Assembly: GCA_964252035.1 (NCBI GenBank)
Contig: OZ176201.1
DNA length: 64,000 bases
DNA from: Podarcis erhardii
Taxonomy: Eukaryota
Strand: one strand, 5' to 3'
Positions 6,001 through 12,000 of this stretch are shown one piece after another (position 1 is the first letter of the stretch; each line of letters begins with the position of its first letter). A program made the position numbers.

Positions 6001-9000
6001 GTCAGACAATATTAAGTGTACCTCTGAATGTTTCTGCTAATGGTGCGAGTTTATTGAGCCTGTTCATGCACAAAGTGTTTATCCCCTTCATTGTTTTGGG
6101 ATAAGGGAATGAGCACGCGGCCATTCCAGATTTCAAAAGACATTCCAGGTATGCAACTAATGGTTACTACAAAACTGTGGCTTTTAGCAGATTCTCTTTC
6201 TCAAAGAGCTTTAAATGTGCCTAATGGAAGAAGAGACTTGATGGAAATTTGTTCCCTCTGTTTAGAGAAAGATTTCTACTTGGTCAGCTTTATTTTTGTA
6301 GTAGTATGTCAGTGCACTAAGTCTGAGCACAGCTTCTTGGAGGAGGAGCTTGAGTAACAAGACATCCTTTTTTTTCTTTTCTTTTTTTACTGTGCTGTGT
6401 GCCTTAATGTGAACTGCTCACTACATTGTAAACTATAAGGAAAAGCAGAATAAACTGGAATAATTGCAAGATTGTAATATTGTATCCCATAACTTATTAA
6501 AAACCATGAATGTTGGCTTCATGAAATAAAATGTGCATGTTAAAAACAAACTCAGGTGGGCTTCTAAGTATTTTTTTTGGTTTTGCCATGACTCATGTCT
6601 GTCTAAATGGACCAACTTGTATTGTATCTGCATCAAATATCATTCCTGCTGGTGGTTTTTGTTTGGAAACTGAAACTTTGAAATAGCATAAGGCAACAAA
6701 GTGCCTTACAATAGTACGGAGATCTTGAACATGGACCATAATTGGCAGTGGTAAAAGCAGATGTGGTCTTTCGTTCATCATGCATGATTTTAAGCATACA
6801 GGCTCCCTAGCTCTCAAGACTGTCTCTGTGGCTGAGTTAGGTATGCTTTGTCTTTTCCACAGATTTTTACACTAAATATTCTAGGTCTTGTGCTGTGAAA
6901 ACAAGCTAGCCCTTGGTCAAGTATTTAGCTCTTAAGCCTCCTACTTGTTTGCATGGCTCTGCCGAAGTCTACCCCTAATCCCTAAAATCATTTGGTTCTT
7001 GCCATGCCATTGAAAGGCACTCTGGAGATAGGAATTTTGGGGAGGGGGTGTAGTTCAGTGGTAGAGTATACACTTTGCATTCAGAGGAACCCAGGTTCAA
7101 ATCCTGGCTTCTCCAAATAAAGACCAGGTAGCAAATTATGTAAAATGCTTCTTTTTTCAGAGCTGCTGTCAGTTGACCGTAGCCAGCTTTCCCCTAACCC
7201 AGTGCCTTCCTGTTTTTTGGACTACCAACTCATATGCACCCCAGTTATCATGGCCAATGGTTGGGATGGTGGGAGCTGGTAATCCAAAACATTGGGAGGG
7301 CACCAGGTTGAAAAAGTCTGAGCTGTGTTGACATGGAAGCAGCTCATCAGCATTTTATTCAGGAGTTTTTCCAACCTGCTCTGGAAATGCCAGGAATGGA
7401 ACCCAAGATTTCTGCTTGCATAGAATGCACCCTTCTTCTGAACTATGGGTGATGGGGACAGTGTATGTGGAATTTATCAGTCTTTGTAACTAGTGCTACC
7501 ATCGAACCAGAAGTAATGATTGCTGTTTTTGTTTTGTTTGCAATGTTCTTTTTTCGGTGCTAATATTCTTCCACTGTGGCCCTAGCTTAAAAGGGCTGTG
7601 CCATGTTTTCTAATAGATGTCAGATTCTCACATCTGTGGGCAGTTAATAGCTAGAGCTACATACAAAAGCTTTCACTGTTTTCCATGCCACTCCTAGGCA
7701 CACACCACAGTTTCAAAGTTCAGTGTTATGAATTTCTTCAGAATATTCTCTCTCCTCTTTATATTAGTTTACTCACTATGTACTCTTTGAAACTTGGGTG
7801 GAGGCCTGGCATTTGAATCTTATAATTTATGGCTTAACTCCAGAGGTCTAAAACTTTCCCATTTCTTTATGGGTGTGGTAGTTCTTGCATTGCGATGAAA
7901 GCATTAGAGGAGGAAACCAAATGGCTGGCATGGAGTTCATCTCTATACAGCTGCCTTACCCATCTCTGTTACAAATGCTTTTGATTCTGTTATTTTAAGA
8001 TGTTTTGCTTTTAAAGGGCAACTGCTCAAATTAAGACCATGGGACAAGAAAGATAGAGGGAGTACCTTTGCATGCATTTTAATTTCCTCTCTGTAGCTGT
8101 GTGCTATATACATTTCTCTGAAAAAGATTTATCCCCCTACTGTGCTACCTTTCAGCTATCACTATGACTACTGCGTTGTAAGGCAGGGGGCTTTTAAGAA
8201 GGTGTTTGAATTCTTTGTGTAACACACAGAGAGCCAGTCAAACCTTGCCTGCTTTGGGGCTGTATTACGCACCCAAACCCCAGGGTGGGTTTTGAGCAAG
8301 GGCACACAGCCAGTTTTGTGGTTTCAGAGAGAGAAATCACAGGCACCACATGGAATGGTAGCCAATCTAACTTTTTGTGGCTTCCGCTGAGTTTGGCTTT
8401 GATTTTCTTTGGGTTGAGTCCAATGCAACTTAAAATTGGGGAAATGAAGATTGGCAAATCTCCTGCTTGCTTGTGCACAACTTGCATTCAAGATGGACTG
8501 CTAACTTCCAACCAAGTGTTTTTGTTAAATCACTATTTGTGTGCATGTGCACACACTCGTGTGTGTCTCGGGTGTAAATATTCTGTAGTCAGCAAAAGTG
8601 GGAAGGGTGAGGAGGGCAAGGTTATTCTTTATTTTCAGTTTGATTTACGAGCTCTGCAGTTACAAAGCCCCAACTAAGTTGTAAGATAACTAATTCCACC
8701 TGTCGGGCAATTGTAGCTGCAAAGAAGCCCACCTAAGGTTTTCAACATTTCACCAAAAACAAACCCTTCCAATGCAGCTTTATGCCTTGTAGTCACCTAG
8801 TTGCAGGAGGTGTGTGTGTTAGTGGGAGAGCGAGAGCGCACACAGGCCCTGTTCAGAGGCTGTAATTTGAGAATAGCTTCACTGGCCCTTTTGTGTATGT
8901 TTCCTTGGACACCAGAGGCAGGAAGTAACATTTGCCGAGCACACGGTGGTCACCACACAGACTCTGCCATCTCTCTGGGGCTATGAGGGGCCTGCTGACC

Positions 9001-12000
9001 ACGCGGGAGCAAGATGGCTGGAGGGAGCTTATTAACAAGGAGGCCACCTGCAGGGTCAACTGGAAGGCAAAATACGGTCACAAATACCCCAGGCGGGTGA
9101 CTGACTATGGGGTCGCCAAAAGGAAGTGTTTCTTGCCTGCCATCTGCCCTCCTGAGAAGAGTGCAAGCTCCCTCCGGTGTCAAGAAGTAACTCTGCAAAA
9201 AGAGGACAGGCGGCAGCTGTCAGGGAAGGAGGAGAAGCAGGAGGAGGAAGGCCCAAGCCTTCAGGAGCCTCTTCCCGAGATGAGGGTTCCCACACCACAG
9301 ACAACTCAGCTGCTATACCAGGGCTTTTCCCATGAAGGCAAAGGGAGGCATCACTACCTCAAACAGAGGAAGATGAAGAGCCCTGAGGAGAAATTCTGCT
9401 ACCCAGTGCTGTCGTCGTGGGAATATGGCTGGCGCTTAGGTAAGAGTAATGAACCAGTAATGGCTATTGCAAGGATCCCAGAGCATGAGAGGCATGCAGT
9501 AGGCTTAAGAGAATGCTTCACCAGGGACGACGAAATATTTCAAGTTGCTTCTGCCTCCCCCGCTTTAATTGTCTTTGTGAGGGGAAATTATTAGGGTGGA
9601 ATGCAGTGTAGCGCTGTCTGTTGTTGTCCATATGTAATCTCCCCCGCCATGACATGCTTAAATTTGTTGTAGGACTTCCCCTAATCTCTAGCAGATTTGG
9701 GAAGGCACAGGGCACTAACAGGATGTGTCCCTGACAGCTGTCTGTCTTTCCTTATGCACACATGCCAGCTCCTGAACAGTTTTAAATATGGTGGCCCACT
9801 TACACATTGGCAAAAAACCCGAGGAAATGTATCTCCTCAAAAGAGGCCAGAAATCAGCGCAGTATTTAGCATAATGTAATTTATATGTTTGCAAATTTGA
9901 CAATAATTAGTATAGGTCAAATGGGAAGACTGACCAGGTATCAGTTGTTGATTGACAACTCCATTGACGTCTGTCTCTTTTGGAGCAGACTGTTCTTCAG
10001 TAGAGGACTGTCCTCTGGAAAGTAGGCCACATGGTCACCCTCCCTTTTAAGCTTTGTTCAGAAATGCATTTTTGAGGCGCAGGAGCTAAATTGTGCCTTC
10101 CGCTTGCTCTAGTTGCCCTATGCCTGCCTTTCTATCTGTTACCACTTAGCAGCCTTCCTATTCCATTCTGCATAAGCCCCCAGCAAACCACTGAATTGCC
10201 AGCTACGCATTATTCCGTGAGTCACGGTGACAGAAGCCAATCTAGTTCTGTATGCCAGAGTCTGAATAATGTTTCATTTGCTTACATGGTGACTTTGCTC
10301 TGAGCGTAAGTGTTAAGAAGAAATACAAAACAGTAAGAACTAAATAAAGTGAAGCGCAAGCTGGTGGTGTTTGCCTGGGATGACGCCACCTTTACAGGAC
10401 CCACTTCAGAGTCCAAATCCCCACGCAGTGATGAACCTTTGGTCAGGCACCATCTTTCAGCCTAACCTGCCTCAGAGGGTGGTTGCGAGGATAAAATGGA
10501 AGGAGGGGGAAGCCACATTTAAGCTCCTTGGAGGAAATGACTGCCTGCCTGCCCCCTGAATGGTAGAAATTAGGCAGGTAAAGCTTTTAAGATAAAATGA
10601 GGGCAAGGGTGCACCTGTTGAATTTCTGTATAGTCTGCTGCTTTTACAGACAGGGAAAAAGTTTGCTATCATCTAAGCCAGGCATAGGCAAACTCTGCCC
10701 TCCAGATGTTTTGGGACTACAACTCCCATCATCCCTAGCTAACAGGACCAGTGGTCAGGGATGATGGGAGTTGTAGTCCCAAAACATCTGGAGGGCCAAG
10801 TGTGCTTATGCCTGAGCTAAGCATTTATATCTTTTATTAATGGTGGAACTAAGCTGCTGTTTTGTGCATTATTGTTTTATGGAGCAGAGTTTTGTTCAGT
10901 GGGAGCTATAAAGCACTGCAGCTCTTCAGATCTATCAGCCTCATTCCAAAAGACCCAAACAGGTTTTAGTGCTTTCTCCTTCAGTTAAGAGCACATGTTG
11001 GCTTTAGCCAATTGTAAACGCAGGCAACTGAACGATAATCTTGGTCATTTGATTGCCCTTTTTACCCATTGTTGTCTTTTTAATTGTATATATTGCTTGT
11101 TTTATGTTGCTATGGCCGTTGGCNNNNNNNNNNNNNNNNNNNNNNNNNNNNNNNNNNNNNNNNNNNNNNNNNNNNNNNNNNNNNNNNNNNNNNNNNNNNN
11201 NNNNNNNNNNNNNNNNNNNNNNNNNNNNNNNNNNNNNNNNNNNNNNNNNNNNNNNNNNNNNCTGGGCAGCCCTGGCAAGGCGATGTAGTCATCACAGCTA
11301 CAGGTGGTGAACTCATGATGATTTGTATGGCAGTCAGTTAAATGCCTGGTGATGATTTCACCAAATCCAGGAAATGGATGACAGGCTTATACTGCTCCTT
11401 GCTTATCAGTTTACAAATTGTGACTGTTCTGTAAGGGAATCTGAAAATCACATCATGTGGCAGCTGGCATTCTGCTTTAGGTTATCTTAGGCATGCAAAT
11501 TTTAACGCACAATTACACATTTATTTTTCCAGGAGACGTGGTTAAGGACATGAGGACACCAATCCATGGCAAATCCCGAATTGTAAAGGATACTTTCTAC
11601 TTCAAAAATGGAATCTTCTATCATCCATCAAAAACTGACAAGCTGTCATGAATATTATTGCTAACTGACATGTGGAAATGTTTGTGCAATGTTGCCTAGC
11701 ATGGATATTTGTTGTGGTATTGGATCAGACAACCCTCTATAATTACTTCCCTCCATAATTACTCCATTAGGTTTAGAACTTGCTTCTAGCCTTCCTTTCC
11801 CTGTAGCCTGTAGCACTGCTTCTTGTGTAATAGATGCACAGCACCTATCATTCTGGCAGAGTAACTTACTGGGTTCTGTGTCAAGGATGTGTACACCACC
11901 TTGCATACATTTGGGACCAGAGTCTGATTTAGAGCCAATTAATTCATATGGCTGTTGTGATGTTTCTTGTGGTAGTTTCCTTTTGTGGTGACACCTTGAA

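What the first reader, a model, noticed from the sequence alone, without database searches (positions are those of the whole stretch)
8983..11651. SPMIP1/ATP6V1FNB-like gene downstream of FLNB: candidate retained whole-genome-duplication paralogue
Seen: an intact two-exon, 191-aa gene with canonical splice sites, starting about 2.4 kb after the FLNB polyA signals on the same strand. Established (recalled): human SPMIP1 lies just downstream of FLNC and ATP6V1F on 7q32; FLNA, FLNB and FLNC mark paralogous regions; I recall no such coding gene between human FLNB and DNASE1L3. Inference: this is the FLNB-linked ohnologue, kept in squamates and lost in mammals, and encodes a little-studied sperm or ciliary microtubule inner protein. 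Its middle region (acidic KEEKQEEEGP) differs from the Pro-rich linker of human SPMIP1.
[Added by the scan's program, not by the reader: the finding's places include an assembly gap (unread letters, written N; its length is only estimated) at 11124 to 11261. Whether the letters on both sides are continuous or in frame is not known: test that first.]
Basis: partly seen in the sequence, partly recalled or inferred. Interest (0 to 1): 0.65.

Follow-up and report, generated by a model that had tools for sequence, protein, structure and literature searches.

The report
Lizard SPMIP1-family gene beside FLNB
This is a real, intact two-exon gene for a small protein that lines the inside of sperm-tail and cilia microtubules; related lizards already have it annotated, and many mammals keep it too, beside a second, more divergent copy that is the one studied so far.

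Summary
A 191-codon, two-exon gene (8983-9439, 11533-11651, + strand) lies about 2.5 kb after the FLNB polyA signals and before DNASE1L3 (minus strand). The N gap (11124-11261) is inside the intron. Exon 1 ends at Pfam SPMIP1 profile position 94 and exon 2 starts at 95. The two exons cover residues 1-152 and 154-191 of the 191-aa Lacerta agilis protein, so no coding exon is missing. Exons were searched apart; I made no joined sequence.

The gene is not the orthologue of the mammalian SPMIP1 seen in bovine and mouse sperm doublets. Papers place that gene at FLNC-ATP6V1F-SPMIP1-KCP. The lizard gene belongs to a slowly evolving lineage (my label: type A, motif SSWEYGW). Type A is found in sharks, ray-finned fishes, coelacanth, lungfish, amphibians, turtles, crocodilians and squamates, and also in 45 named mammal species. 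So 'lost in mammals' is wrong; at most it is lost or unannotated in anthropoids.

I could not test whether the two lineages date from the vertebrate genome duplications, because no eukaryotic genome context was available. The gene is already annotated by NCBI as ATP6V1FNB/SPMIP1 in 19 squamate species. Its likely role is a B-tubule luminal inner protein, by homology to the solved sea-urchin protein.

The parts
2004..5061 (+). Last coding exons of FLNB (filamin repeats 23-24 and neighbours), with the stop codon TAA at 5059-5061
   Evidence: Pfam Filamin matches frames 2004-2234, 3434-3796, 3874-4119 and 4765-5058. The best PDB matches are Filamin-B domains 2eec_A and 2eed_A, 23-26 bits above FLNA and FLNC. 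Stop codon read.
6449..6530 (+). Cluster of polyA signals (AATAAA, ATTAAA, AATAAA); probable 3' end of FLNB
   Evidence: Assigning them to FLNB is an inference.
8983..9439 (+). Exon 1 of the SPMIP1-family gene: 152 codons plus the first base of the Gly153 codon
   Evidence: Pfam PF22589 E 2.4e-30. 145/152 identical to Lacerta agilis P0001.
8983..9084 (+). Conserved N-terminal block (aa 1-34)
   Evidence: Mean share of the commonest residue is 0.69 in 53 vertebrate proteins and 0.89 in 14 squamates. It aligns to sea-urchin residues 4-35, which lie within the modelled stretch 2-35 (PMC11834534 Table 1 passage).
9085..9279 (+). Variable acidic linker (aa 35-99, includes KEEKQEEEGP)
   Evidence: Mean share of the commonest residue is 0.32 in 53 proteins and 0.59 in squamates. 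It corresponds to the unmodelled residues 36-103 of the sea-urchin protein. Four of the 7 differences from Lacerta fall here.
9280..9438 (+). C-terminal domain, exon-1 part (aa 100-152)
   Evidence: Mean share 0.74 in all 53 proteins and 0.90 in squamates; 22 of 53 columns are at least 90% conserved. No differences from Lacerta.
9412..9432 (+). SSWEYGW (aa 144-150), the SNYG-type tubulin-contact motif
   Evidence: Read. It aligns with TTNFTYGW of the bovine and mouse chains and SSWEYGW of the sea-urchin chain. The SNYG module of SPMIP1 is described in PMC10973386 (passages).
9440..11532 (+). Phase-1 intron with GT...AG ends. It holds the assembly gap 11124-11261 and a palindromic interspersed repeat at 10679-10814.
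11533..11651 (+). Exon 2: the last two bases of the Gly153 codon, 38 codons and TGA
   Evidence: Pfam profile positions 95-122. 38/38 identical to P0001 residues 154-191. Matches sea-urchin residues 161-188.
12374..12379 (+). First AATAAA after the stop codon; candidate polyA signal, giving a 3' UTR of about 0.7 kb
   Evidence: This is an inference with no transcript evidence.
31895..32053 (-). One exon of DNASE1L3, the downstream neighbour
   Evidence: Pfam Exo_endo_phos E 0.0014. PDB 7kiu_A Deoxyribonuclease gamma 81.7 bits against DNase I 52.7.

Best explanation
The region holds the lizard orthologue of a conserved, pan-gnathostome member of the SPMIP1 family (Pfam PF22589). I call this lineage 'type A'.

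By homology to the solved sea-urchin sperm protein, it most likely acts as a microtubule inner protein in the lumen of the B-tubule of axonemal doublets. A conserved N-terminal block (aa 1-34) and a C-terminal domain (aa ~100-181) would bind the tubulin wall. The C-terminal domain carries the SNYG-type motif SSWEYGW. A poorly conserved, probably disordered acidic linker (aa 35-99) joins the two blocks.

The gene lies between FLNB and DNASE1L3. The mammalian SPMIP1 studied so far (my 'type B': bovine 8otz_A, mouse 9v10_Ia) is a separate, faster-evolving paralogue located at FLNC-ATP6V1F-KCP.

Shown here: the gene structure, family membership, the neighbours, the distinction between types A and B, and the wide distribution of type A, including in mammals.

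Inferred: luminal B-tubule binding, expression in sperm or cilia, and the position of type A in other species.
For: - Gene model and gap.
- Family: PF22589 at 105.7 bits against a cut-off of 32.1.
- Closest solved relative: sea-urchin sperm 8snb_1i, collinear over the full length. Exon 1 scores 82.6 bits and exon 2 scores 28.2 bits; the Lacerta orthologue scores 129.2 bits over residues 4-181. That protein is listed as a B-tubule protein with 48-nm periodicity, spanning protofilaments B07-B10, with residues 2-35 and 104-187 modelled (PMC11834534 Table 1 passage). 8SNB is the sea-urchin sperm doublet (PMC13066092 data availability passage).
- Conservation mirrors the modelled parts: 0.69 (N block), 0.32 (linker), 0.74 (C block) and 0.64 (exon 2) in 53 proteins. 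There are no differences from Lacerta in the C block or in exon 2.
- Type A against type B: all 127 proteins stored after carry SSW[ED]YGW or a close form, while the bovine and mouse chains read TTNFTYGWQL.
- Two genes within one lineage, bovids: ibex type A (P0096) scores 77.5 bits with the sea-urchin chain over its full length but 60.6 bits with bovine SPMIP1, and only over the core. Sheep also has a type-A protein (P0285, 'Uncharacterized protein'), apart from its named ATP6V1FNB gene.
- Two genes within one lineage, mouse: both mouse Spmip1 qPCR primers printed in PMC12808527 (section 2.7 passage) translate, by my own reading, to peptides present in 9v10_Ia. 9V10 is mouse sperm. Rodent type-A proteins carry the different mouse-derived name Gm45521.
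- Tree of 53 named type-A proteins, support out of 60 bootstrap replicates: Squamata 60, Mammalia 53, turtles+crocodilians 54, Sauropsida 37, Amniota 34.
- Neighbours.
Against: - There is no transcript, proteome or structural evidence for this species. The only hint that the splice is used is an unnamed 185-aa squamate-like protein with the spliced reading, on a 1222-nt contig (P0010).
- No RFX X-box lies within one mismatch of the consensus near the 5' end.
- The co-occurrence of both types in a single genome rests on names and on two different bovid species. It does not rest on two loci seen in one assembly.
- Deeper tree nodes are weak: Amniota 34/60, Tetrapoda 4/60.
- Type A is absent from every solved mammalian axoneme in the PDB copy, so its axonemal role in amniotes is extrapolated from the sea urchin.
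- PMC10973386 notes that the human gene is not co-expressed with ciliary genes across tissues (passage).
Confidence: 0.8

Rival explanations
1. The gene is the FLNB-linked ohnologue of SPMIP1 from the two vertebrate genome duplications, kept in squamates and lost in mammals.
For: The lizard copy lies at FLNB. The mammalian gene named SPMIP1 lies at FLNC-ATP6V1F (passages). The two protein types are clearly distinct. Type B is no closer to mammalian type A (60.6 bits) than to lizard (71.6), shark (74.9) or gar (69.9) type A. A recent duplication does not predict that pattern.
Against: The 'lost in mammals' part is contradicted: type A is named in 45 mammal species and these form a clade with sauropsids in 34 of 60 replicates. 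'Kept in squamates' is too narrow. The duplication date is untested. Bit scores saturate, and mammalian type A is itself fast-evolving (distance to sharks 1.15 against 0.66-0.88 for other groups). No type-B protein was seen in a named non-mammal. I could not find the paralogy of FLNA, FLNB and FLNC in print (0 papers; nothing relevant among the 3 papers listed), so it is recalled.
Confidence: 0.1
2. The ohnologue idea without the loss. Types A and B are genome-duplication paralogues linked to FLNB and FLNC respectively, most mammals keep both, and non-mammals lost type B or have it undetected.
For: The same evidence as above, plus the wide mammalian distribution of type A. Both copies sit next to filamin paralogues, which a single relocation would reach only by coincidence.
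Against: The position of type A outside this window is unknown. Type B was seen only in mammals. This scenario needs several independent losses of type B. Dating is inconclusive.
Confidence: 0.45
3. A duplication in the mammalian stem. The ancestral single gene lay at FLNB, a copy arose in the line leading to mammals, landed near ATP6V1F and FLNC, and diverged quickly as a sperm-specific protein.
For: Every named non-mammal hit is type A. Type B is the fast-evolving copy, as is common after recent duplication of sperm genes (inference).
Against: The copy would have to land beside the FLNB paralogue by chance. Type B is not closer to mammalian type A than to shark, gar or lizard type A.
Confidence: 0.3
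4. A translocated orthologue. There is a single gene lineage, and the lizard gene is the mammalian SPMIP1 moved from FLNC to FLNB.
For: NCBI gives the lizard, fish and many mammalian proteins the same name, ATP6V1FNB/SPMIP1.
Against: Two distinct types occur within Bovidae and, going by gene names, in the mouse lineage. The lizard protein groups with type A.
Confidence: 0.04
5. An untranscribed or decaying copy, or a chance open frame.
For: There is no expression evidence for this species.
Against: The frame is intact with canonical splice sites. Pfam E is 2.4e-30. The C-terminal 91 residues are 100% identical to those of another lacertid. Intact orthologues exist in 19 named squamate species.
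Confidence: 0.02

Closest known systems
'protein ATP6V1FNB' of Lacerta agilis (P0001, NCBI/UniRef name), and the same-named proteins of 18 other squamate species
   Same: Same length (191 aa) and the same exon junction. 145/152 identical in exon 1 and 38/38 in exon 2. This is the same gene in a related lizard.
   Different: Seven substitutions: 3 conservative ones in aa 1-34 and 4 in the linker.
Sea-urchin sperm SPMIP1/ATP6V1FNB (PDB 8snb chain 1i, 188 aa)
   Same: Collinear over the full length. It has the same SSWEYGW motif and the same N-terminal and C-terminal blocks. It is the highest-scoring solved relative: 129.2 bits for the Lacerta orthologue.
   Different: The linker is unrelated in sequence. 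Its B-tubule position (B07-B10, 48 nm) is known for the sea-urchin protein only.
Mammalian SPMIP1 (ATP6V1F neighbour) of bovine (8otz_A, 176 aa) and mouse (9v10_Ia, 177 aa) sperm doublets
   Same: Same Pfam family and the same overall layout of N block, linker and SNYG-type module.
   Different: The motif reads TTNFTYGWQL instead of SSWEYGWRL, and the linker is proline-rich. Scores with the Lacerta orthologue are only 71.6 and 66.0 bits. The locus is FLNC-ATP6V1F-KCP, against FLNB-DNASE1L3 here.
Mammalian type-A proteins. Their sources name them ATP6V1FNB, SPMIP1, Gm45521 or 'uncharacterized'. Lengths are 179-249 aa for whole models.
   Same: Same motif, and they group with sauropsid proteins. 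They are the probable orthologues of the lizard gene.
   Different: Longer linker and faster evolution. Their genomic position was not seen here. None appears in a solved structure.
Other SNYG-module inner proteins: SPMIP11/TEX49, CFAP90, CFAP144/FAM183A, LLC1/C20orf85
   Same: Weak, below-cut-off Pfam matches centred on the same motif region: PF22593 E 9.6e-4, PF14945 E 2.6e-3, PF14886 E 0.37. The protein atlas places the protein in the same broad group.
   Different: All of these score below their curated cut-offs. They are separate families.

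Membership tests
SPMIP1 family (Pfam PF22589) | Profile match above the curated cut-off | tested here: met
   Exon 1 scores 105.7 bits against a cut-off of 32.1 (E 2.4e-30). 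Exon 2 alone scores 26.6 bits, below the cut-off on its own, but it continues the profile exactly: positions 95-122 follow 17-94.
SPMIP1 family (Pfam PF22589) | SNYG-type motif followed by the associated helix region | tested here: met
   SSWEYGW at aa 144-150 aligns with the motif of the solved sea-urchin, bovine and mouse chains. The module is described in PMC10973386 (passages).
SPMIP1 family (Pfam PF22589) | Conserved N-terminal block collinear with solved members | tested here: met
   Residues 4-35 align to residues 4-35 of 8snb_1i. Nine of 34 columns are at least 90% conserved in 53 proteins.
SPMIP1 family (Pfam PF22589) | Residence in the lumen of axonemal doublet microtubules | not testable with these tools
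   Known for the sea-urchin, bovine and mouse proteins only.
SPMIP1 family (Pfam PF22589) | Expression in spermatids or motile-ciliated cells | not testable with these tools
   No expression data were available for this species. The X-box scan found nothing near the start codon.
Orthologue of mammalian SPMIP1 (ATP6V1F neighbour, my type B) | Position next to ATP6V1F and FLNC | tested here: not met
   The neighbours are FLNB and DNASE1L3. The mammalian order FLNC, ATP6V1F, SPMIP1, KCP comes from passages.
Orthologue of mammalian SPMIP1 (ATP6V1F neighbour, my type B) | Closest similarity to the bovine and mouse SPMIP1 chains | tested here: not met
   Exon 1 scores 59.9 and 56.0 bits with type B, against 82.6 with the sea-urchin chain and 95-101 with mammalian type A.
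Type-A lineage (pan-gnathostome SSWEYGW proteins; my label) | The motif, and placement inside Squamata in a tree that follows the species tree | tested here: met
   Motif. Squamata is recovered in 60 of 60 replicates, with Lacerta inside it. The window's exons are 95% and 100% identical to Lacerta. The window's own protein was not in the tree, because the exons were not joined.
Genome-duplication (2R) ohnologue pair | The two copies lie in paralogous chromosome blocks | tested here: inconclusive
   The lizard copy lies at FLNB and mammalian SPMIP1 lies at FLNC. The position of type A in any other species, and that of any type B in lizards, was not seen. FLNB/FLNC paralogy is recalled and was not found in print.
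Genome-duplication (2R) ohnologue pair | The duplication predates the gnathostome radiation | tested here: inconclusive
   Type B is roughly equidistant from shark, gar, lizard and goat type A: 74.9, 69.9, 71.6 and 60.6 bits. No tree with type B could be built, because the only stored type-B-like proteins (P0241, P0266) are unnamed and might be human, so I did not use them.
Genome-duplication (2R) ohnologue pair | Both copies present in one genome | tested here: inconclusive
   The evidence is indirect. Bovidae: bovine 8otz_A against ibex P0096 and sheep P0285. Mouse lineage: Spmip1 is type B, while rodent type A is named Gm45521.

The most novel reading that the evidence does not exclude
The filamin-SPMIP1 linkage predates the vertebrate genome duplications, and types A and B are ohnologues at the FLNB and FLNC loci. 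The mammalian 'SPMIP1' of the sperm doublet structures is then the divergent copy. The conserved copy, the true counterpart of the sea-urchin B-tubule protein, persists unstudied in most mammals under mixed names (ATP6V1FNB, SPMIP1, Gm45521, 'uncharacterized'). It is absent from every solved mammalian axoneme, and it may have been lost or degraded in anthropoid primates and in birds.
Probability: 0.4. Interest if true: 0.5.

Novelty: already known. Interest (0 to 1): 0.3.

Why it matters
The gene itself is ordinary: it has annotated orthologues in many genomes. The useful point concerns annotation. One name (SPMIP1/ATP6V1FNB) currently covers two distinct vertebrate genes. The one studied in mammalian sperm is the divergent copy. 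The conserved copy, which is the better counterpart of the sea-urchin B-tubule protein, has no literature that I could find: 0 papers (Gm45521, ch211-193l2.10) and 0 (ATP6V1FNB-like, SPMIP1-like, SPMIP1 paralog, Spmip1 knockout).

This affects how orthology tables and knockout results are read. It also bears on unassigned densities in axoneme maps. If the linkage to FLNB and FLNC holds across species, it adds one small marker pair to these paralogous regions.

Tried and rejected
- Protein atlas: it only returned the broad LLC1/SPMIP1/FAM183 group and says nothing on paralogy.
- Search for fused gene models that would reveal adjacency to filamin. None of 8 over-long unnamed non-mammal representatives had a Filamin domain; the 1352-aa P0253 is a MED14-SPMIP1 fusion model. 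None of 12 over-long named models did either. This is uninformative either way.
- RFX X-box scan: 16 matches in the window against 10.3 ± 3.8 expected, none in 8400-9000.
- Bacterial promoter and terminator scan of 8400-9000: 0 found. The tool is not suited to a eukaryote.
- Rfam on 6000-13000: only a tRNA-like hit at 7044-7115, outside the gene.
- Literature on Gm45521 / ch211-193l2.10, on a second SPMIP1 gene and on filamin paralogy: nothing usable. Two pig GWAS papers matched only SPMIP10 or SPMIP11.
- First tree script timed out. Rerun with a faster distance routine.
- Plus-strand open frames of 42-69 aa between 11.7 and 48.8 kb (154 frames) were not scanned once DNASE1L3 had been found on the minus strand.

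Full report
WHAT IS THERE

It starts at ATG 8983. Exon 1 runs 8983-9439 (457 nt) and ends before the donor GTAAGA. A polypyrimidine acceptor (TTTATTTTTCCAG|G) starts exon 2 at 11533, and TGA is at 11649-11651. That is 576 nt in all, or 191 codons plus the stop. The nearest upstream in-frame stop is at 8926. Three polyA signals at 6449-6530 lie about 2.5 kb upstream of the ATG.

THE GAP, TESTED FIRST

The window has a single N run, 11124-11261. It lies inside the proposed intron, 1684 nt after the donor and 271 nt before the acceptor. The reading frame therefore does not depend on the gap. Three independent results show that no coding exon is hidden there:
- The Pfam SPMIP1 profile is matched by exon 1 up to position 94 and by exon 2 from position 95.
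- The solved sea-urchin chain 8snb_1i is covered at residues 4-159 by exon 1 and 161-188 by exon 2.
- The 191-aa Lacerta agilis protein P0001 is covered at residues 1-152 by exon 1 (145/152 identical) and 154-191 by exon 2 (38/38). Only Gly153 is left, which is what the split codon g|ga encodes.

The joined step was left out, so no joined protein of this window exists in any call. Where a full-length protein was needed, I used the stored Lacerta orthologue. The true intron length and any alternative exon inside the gap remain unknown. Nothing in the window looked human to me; the best matches are lacertid.

NEIGHBOURS

Upstream, on the same strand, four open frames carry filamin repeats. The two largest match solved Filamin-B domains better than Filamin-A or Filamin-C: 137.8 bits against 114.4 and 111.6, and 128.5 bits against 98.4 and 102.0. 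The second frame aligns to the very end of the repeat-24 chain, and TAA follows at 5059-5061. So the upstream gene is FLNB.

Downstream, a minus-strand frame at 31895-32053 gave a weak Exo_endo_phos match. Against solved structures it matches Deoxyribonuclease gamma (DNASE1L3, 7kiu_A) at 81.7 bits, compared with 52.7 bits for DNase I.

The gene order is therefore FLNB (+), SPMIP1-family gene (+), DNASE1L3 (-).

WHAT THE PROTEIN IS

Exon 1 alone scores 105.7 bits on PF22589, against a cut-off of 32.1. NCBI and UniRef already name the orthologues 'protein ATP6V1FNB' or 'protein SPMIP1' in 19 squamate species (40 hits from 50 candidates, 35 of them named). The gene as such is therefore not new.

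A profile search with 15 aligned members gave 369 proteins at E <= 0.001 from 4118 candidates, of which 120 were listed. An exhaustive search of 1.84 billion cluster representatives gave 522 at E <= 0.001 and 65 at E <= 1e-30. Named members include sharks, gar, bowfin, sturgeon, many teleosts, coelacanth, lungfish, frogs, salamanders, turtles, crocodilians and mammals.

TWO TYPES

All 127 proteins stored after carry SSW[ED]YGW or a close form at the core motif. The solved mammalian chains read TTNFTYGWQL there and have a proline-rich linker. These chains are bovine sperm 8otz_A ('ATP6V1F neighbor') and mouse sperm 9v10_Ia ('Protein SPMIP1'). The organisms of these PDB entries are stated in a PMC13066092 data availability passage. 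I call the first kind type A and the second type B; the labels are mine.

Scores of type-A proteins against the solved chains (bits):

| Query (type A) | Sea urchin 8snb_1i | Bovine B 8otz_A | Mouse B 9v10_Ia |
|---|---|---|---|
| Lacerta P0001 | 129.2 | 71.6 | 66.0 |
| Shark P0123 | 129.1 | 74.9 | 75.3 |
| Gar P0033 | 126.3 | 69.9 | 62.9 |
| Ibex P0096 | 77.5 | 60.6 | 57.2 |

A bovid type-A protein is thus more like the sea-urchin protein than like the bovine type-B chain. Bovids must carry two genes.

In the mouse, both Spmip1 qPCR primers printed in PMC12808527 (section 2.7 passage) translate, by my own reading, to peptides present in 9v10_Ia. So mouse Spmip1 is type B. Rodent type-A proteins are instead named 'Gm45521' or 'Predicted gene 45521' by their sources, in Phodopus, Nannospalax and Jaculus. 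That points to a second mouse gene.

Sheep has a type-A protein (P0285, 'Uncharacterized protein'). A sheep paper lists a separately named ATP6V1FNB in the order CCDC136, FLNC, ATP6V1F, ATP6V1FNB, KCP, IRF5 (PMC12924876 passage). Cattle show FLNC, ATP6V1F, SPMIP1, KCP (PMC13244917 passages).

TYPE A IN MAMMALS

A search with the named Microcebus protein P0060 returned 71 proteins from 467 candidates. Of these, 44 entries carry a species name, covering 43 mammal species. With Macrotis and Echinops, that makes 45 named mammal species.

There is no named Homo sapiens, Mus musculus or Bos taurus entry. The only named anthropoid is a partial Saguinus model (54% identity over 68% of the query).

The other 27 hits are unnamed sequences from read or sample collections. 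The human status therefore stayed unchecked.

The unnamed type-B-like representatives P0241 and P0266 were likewise not used. As a result I could not build a gene tree that includes type B.

TREE AND CONSERVATION

I chose 53 named type-A proteins. Models that are truncated, extended, or read through the exon-1 donor were left out; for example, 14 of the 19 named squamates were kept. A neighbour-joining tree on 170 columns gave the following support in 60 replicates:

| Clade | Replicates out of 60 |
|---|---|
| Squamata | 60 |
| Mammalia | 53 |
| Turtles | 55 |
| Crocodilians | 60 |
| Turtles + crocodilians | 54 |
| Sauropsida | 37 |
| Amniota | 34 |
| Tetrapoda | 4 |

Mammals have the longest branches: mean distance to the sharks is 1.15, against 0.66-0.88 for the other groups. 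The pattern fits a single orthologous lineage with faster evolution in mammals. The deep nodes are weak.

Conservation is concentrated in two blocks (mean share of the commonest residue):

| Region | 53 proteins | 14 squamates |
|---|---|---|
| aa 1-34 (N block) | 0.69 | 0.89 |
| aa 35-99 (linker) | 0.32 | 0.59 |
| aa 100-152 (C block, exon 1) | 0.74 | 0.90 |
| Exon 2 | 0.64 | 0.90 |

Against Lacerta, the window's protein differs at 3 positions in the N block, 4 in the linker, and none in the last 91 residues. It reflects a generally unconstrained linker.

HOW IT MOST LIKELY WORKS

SPMIP1 is one of the SNYG-module inner proteins. The conserved motif and an associated helix contact tubulin at the inner wall (PMC10973386 passages). 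The sea-urchin protein is the closest solved relative of the lizard protein. It is listed as a B-tubule protein with 48-nm periodicity, spanning protofilaments B07-B10, with residues 2-35 and 104-187 modelled (PMC11834534 Table 1 passage). Those modelled stretches correspond to the two conserved blocks of the lizard protein, and the unmodelled middle corresponds to the variable linker.

I therefore infer that the lizard protein binds the B-tubule lumen through its two conserved ends, with SSWEYGW (9412-9432) as the tubulin-contact motif. This step is inferred, not shown. There is no expression or structural evidence for this species. No X-box lies near the start codon. No mammalian type-A chain exists in the PDB copy.

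THE OHNOLOGUE QUESTION

In favour:
- The two types sit next to two filamin paralogues.
- Type B is no closer to mammalian type A than to shark, gar or lizard type A.

Against, or open:
- Type B was seen only in mammals.
- Bit scores saturate, and mammalian type A is itself fast-evolving.
- I could not see the position of type A in any species other than this one, nor the FLNC locus of any lizard.
- I did not find the paralogy of the filamin loci in print. It rests on recall.
- The searches for fused filamin-SPMIP1 models were negative.

My estimates are about 0.45 that the pair dates from the genome duplications, about 0.3 for a duplication in the mammalian stem, and under 0.05 for a translocated orthologue.

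VERDICT

The gene is already annotated in relatives.

The modest new point is that one name covers two vertebrate genes, and that the unstudied one is the conserved one. I found no paper on this: 0 papers and 0. Supplementary files, which I could not see, may bear on it.

Noticed in passing
window 10679-10814 (also near 1350, 3038-3105, 4343, 13687-13754): The intron holds a near-perfect hairpin: 58-nt arms, 93% complementary, with a 20-nt loop. The arm sequence occurs 8 times in the window against 0 expected, three times as facing pairs. This is an interspersed palindromic, MITE-like repeat family, also present in FLNB introns.
   Followed up: partly
window 7044-7115 (+): Rfam finds a tRNA-like match (39 bits against a gathering score of 29) between FLNB and the SPMIP1-family gene. 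ARAGORN calls no tRNA there. It is probably the head of a tRNA-derived SINE.
   Followed up: partly
window 9440-9594; proteins P0003, P0009, P0011, P0012, P0026, P0029-P0031, P0050: Several database models of this gene in squamates, turtles and a crocodile read through the exon-1 donor ('...YGWRLGK...'). The window's own open frame would do the same, running on to 9594. This reflects either intron retention in real transcripts or mis-prediction. Such a product would lack the conserved exon-2 tail.
   Followed up: no
named hits: No bird appears among the named hits, although turtles and crocodilians score among the best (279-297 bits, where the weakest listed hit has 209 bits). Birds may have lost the gene or have a very divergent copy. 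The truncated listing (120 of 369) does not allow a conclusion.
   Followed up: no
PDB copy: Lizard and goat type-A queries find only three SPMIP1-family sequences among solved structures: sea-urchin sperm, bovine sperm and mouse sperm. The two mammalian ones are type B. The mammalian type-A protein has not been modelled in any solved axoneme.
   Followed up: partly
window 48927-49634 (-) and 52375-55236 (+): These are retroelement-like stretches; I describe them only. The minus-strand stretch is an isolated piece of a reverse-transcriptase domain (Pfam RVT_1 profile positions 100-194 of 205), so it is truncated. The plus-strand stretch is a run of long open frames, one with an AP-endonuclease domain (Exo_endo_phos). 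No reverse-transcriptase match at E <= 0.001 was found in those frames. Both look like remains of non-LTR (LINE-type) retrotransposons.
   Followed up: no
window 62000-64000: GC content rises to 0.59, and many overlapping open frames lie on both strands without Pfam matches. This is probably a CpG island or the first exon of the next gene beyond DNASE1L3.
   Followed up: no
window 8801-8986 (+): A short upstream open frame in another reading frame ends in a TGA that overlaps the main start codon (ATGA at 8983-8986). The Hemicordylus model P0006 starts at the equivalent upstream ATG. Whether the transcript begins upstream of it is unknown.
   Followed up: no
protein P0253 (1352 aa, unnamed representative): This gene model fuses a MED14 N-terminal part to a C-terminal SPMIP1 domain. 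It is most likely two neighbouring genes merged in some invertebrate annotation.
   Followed up: no
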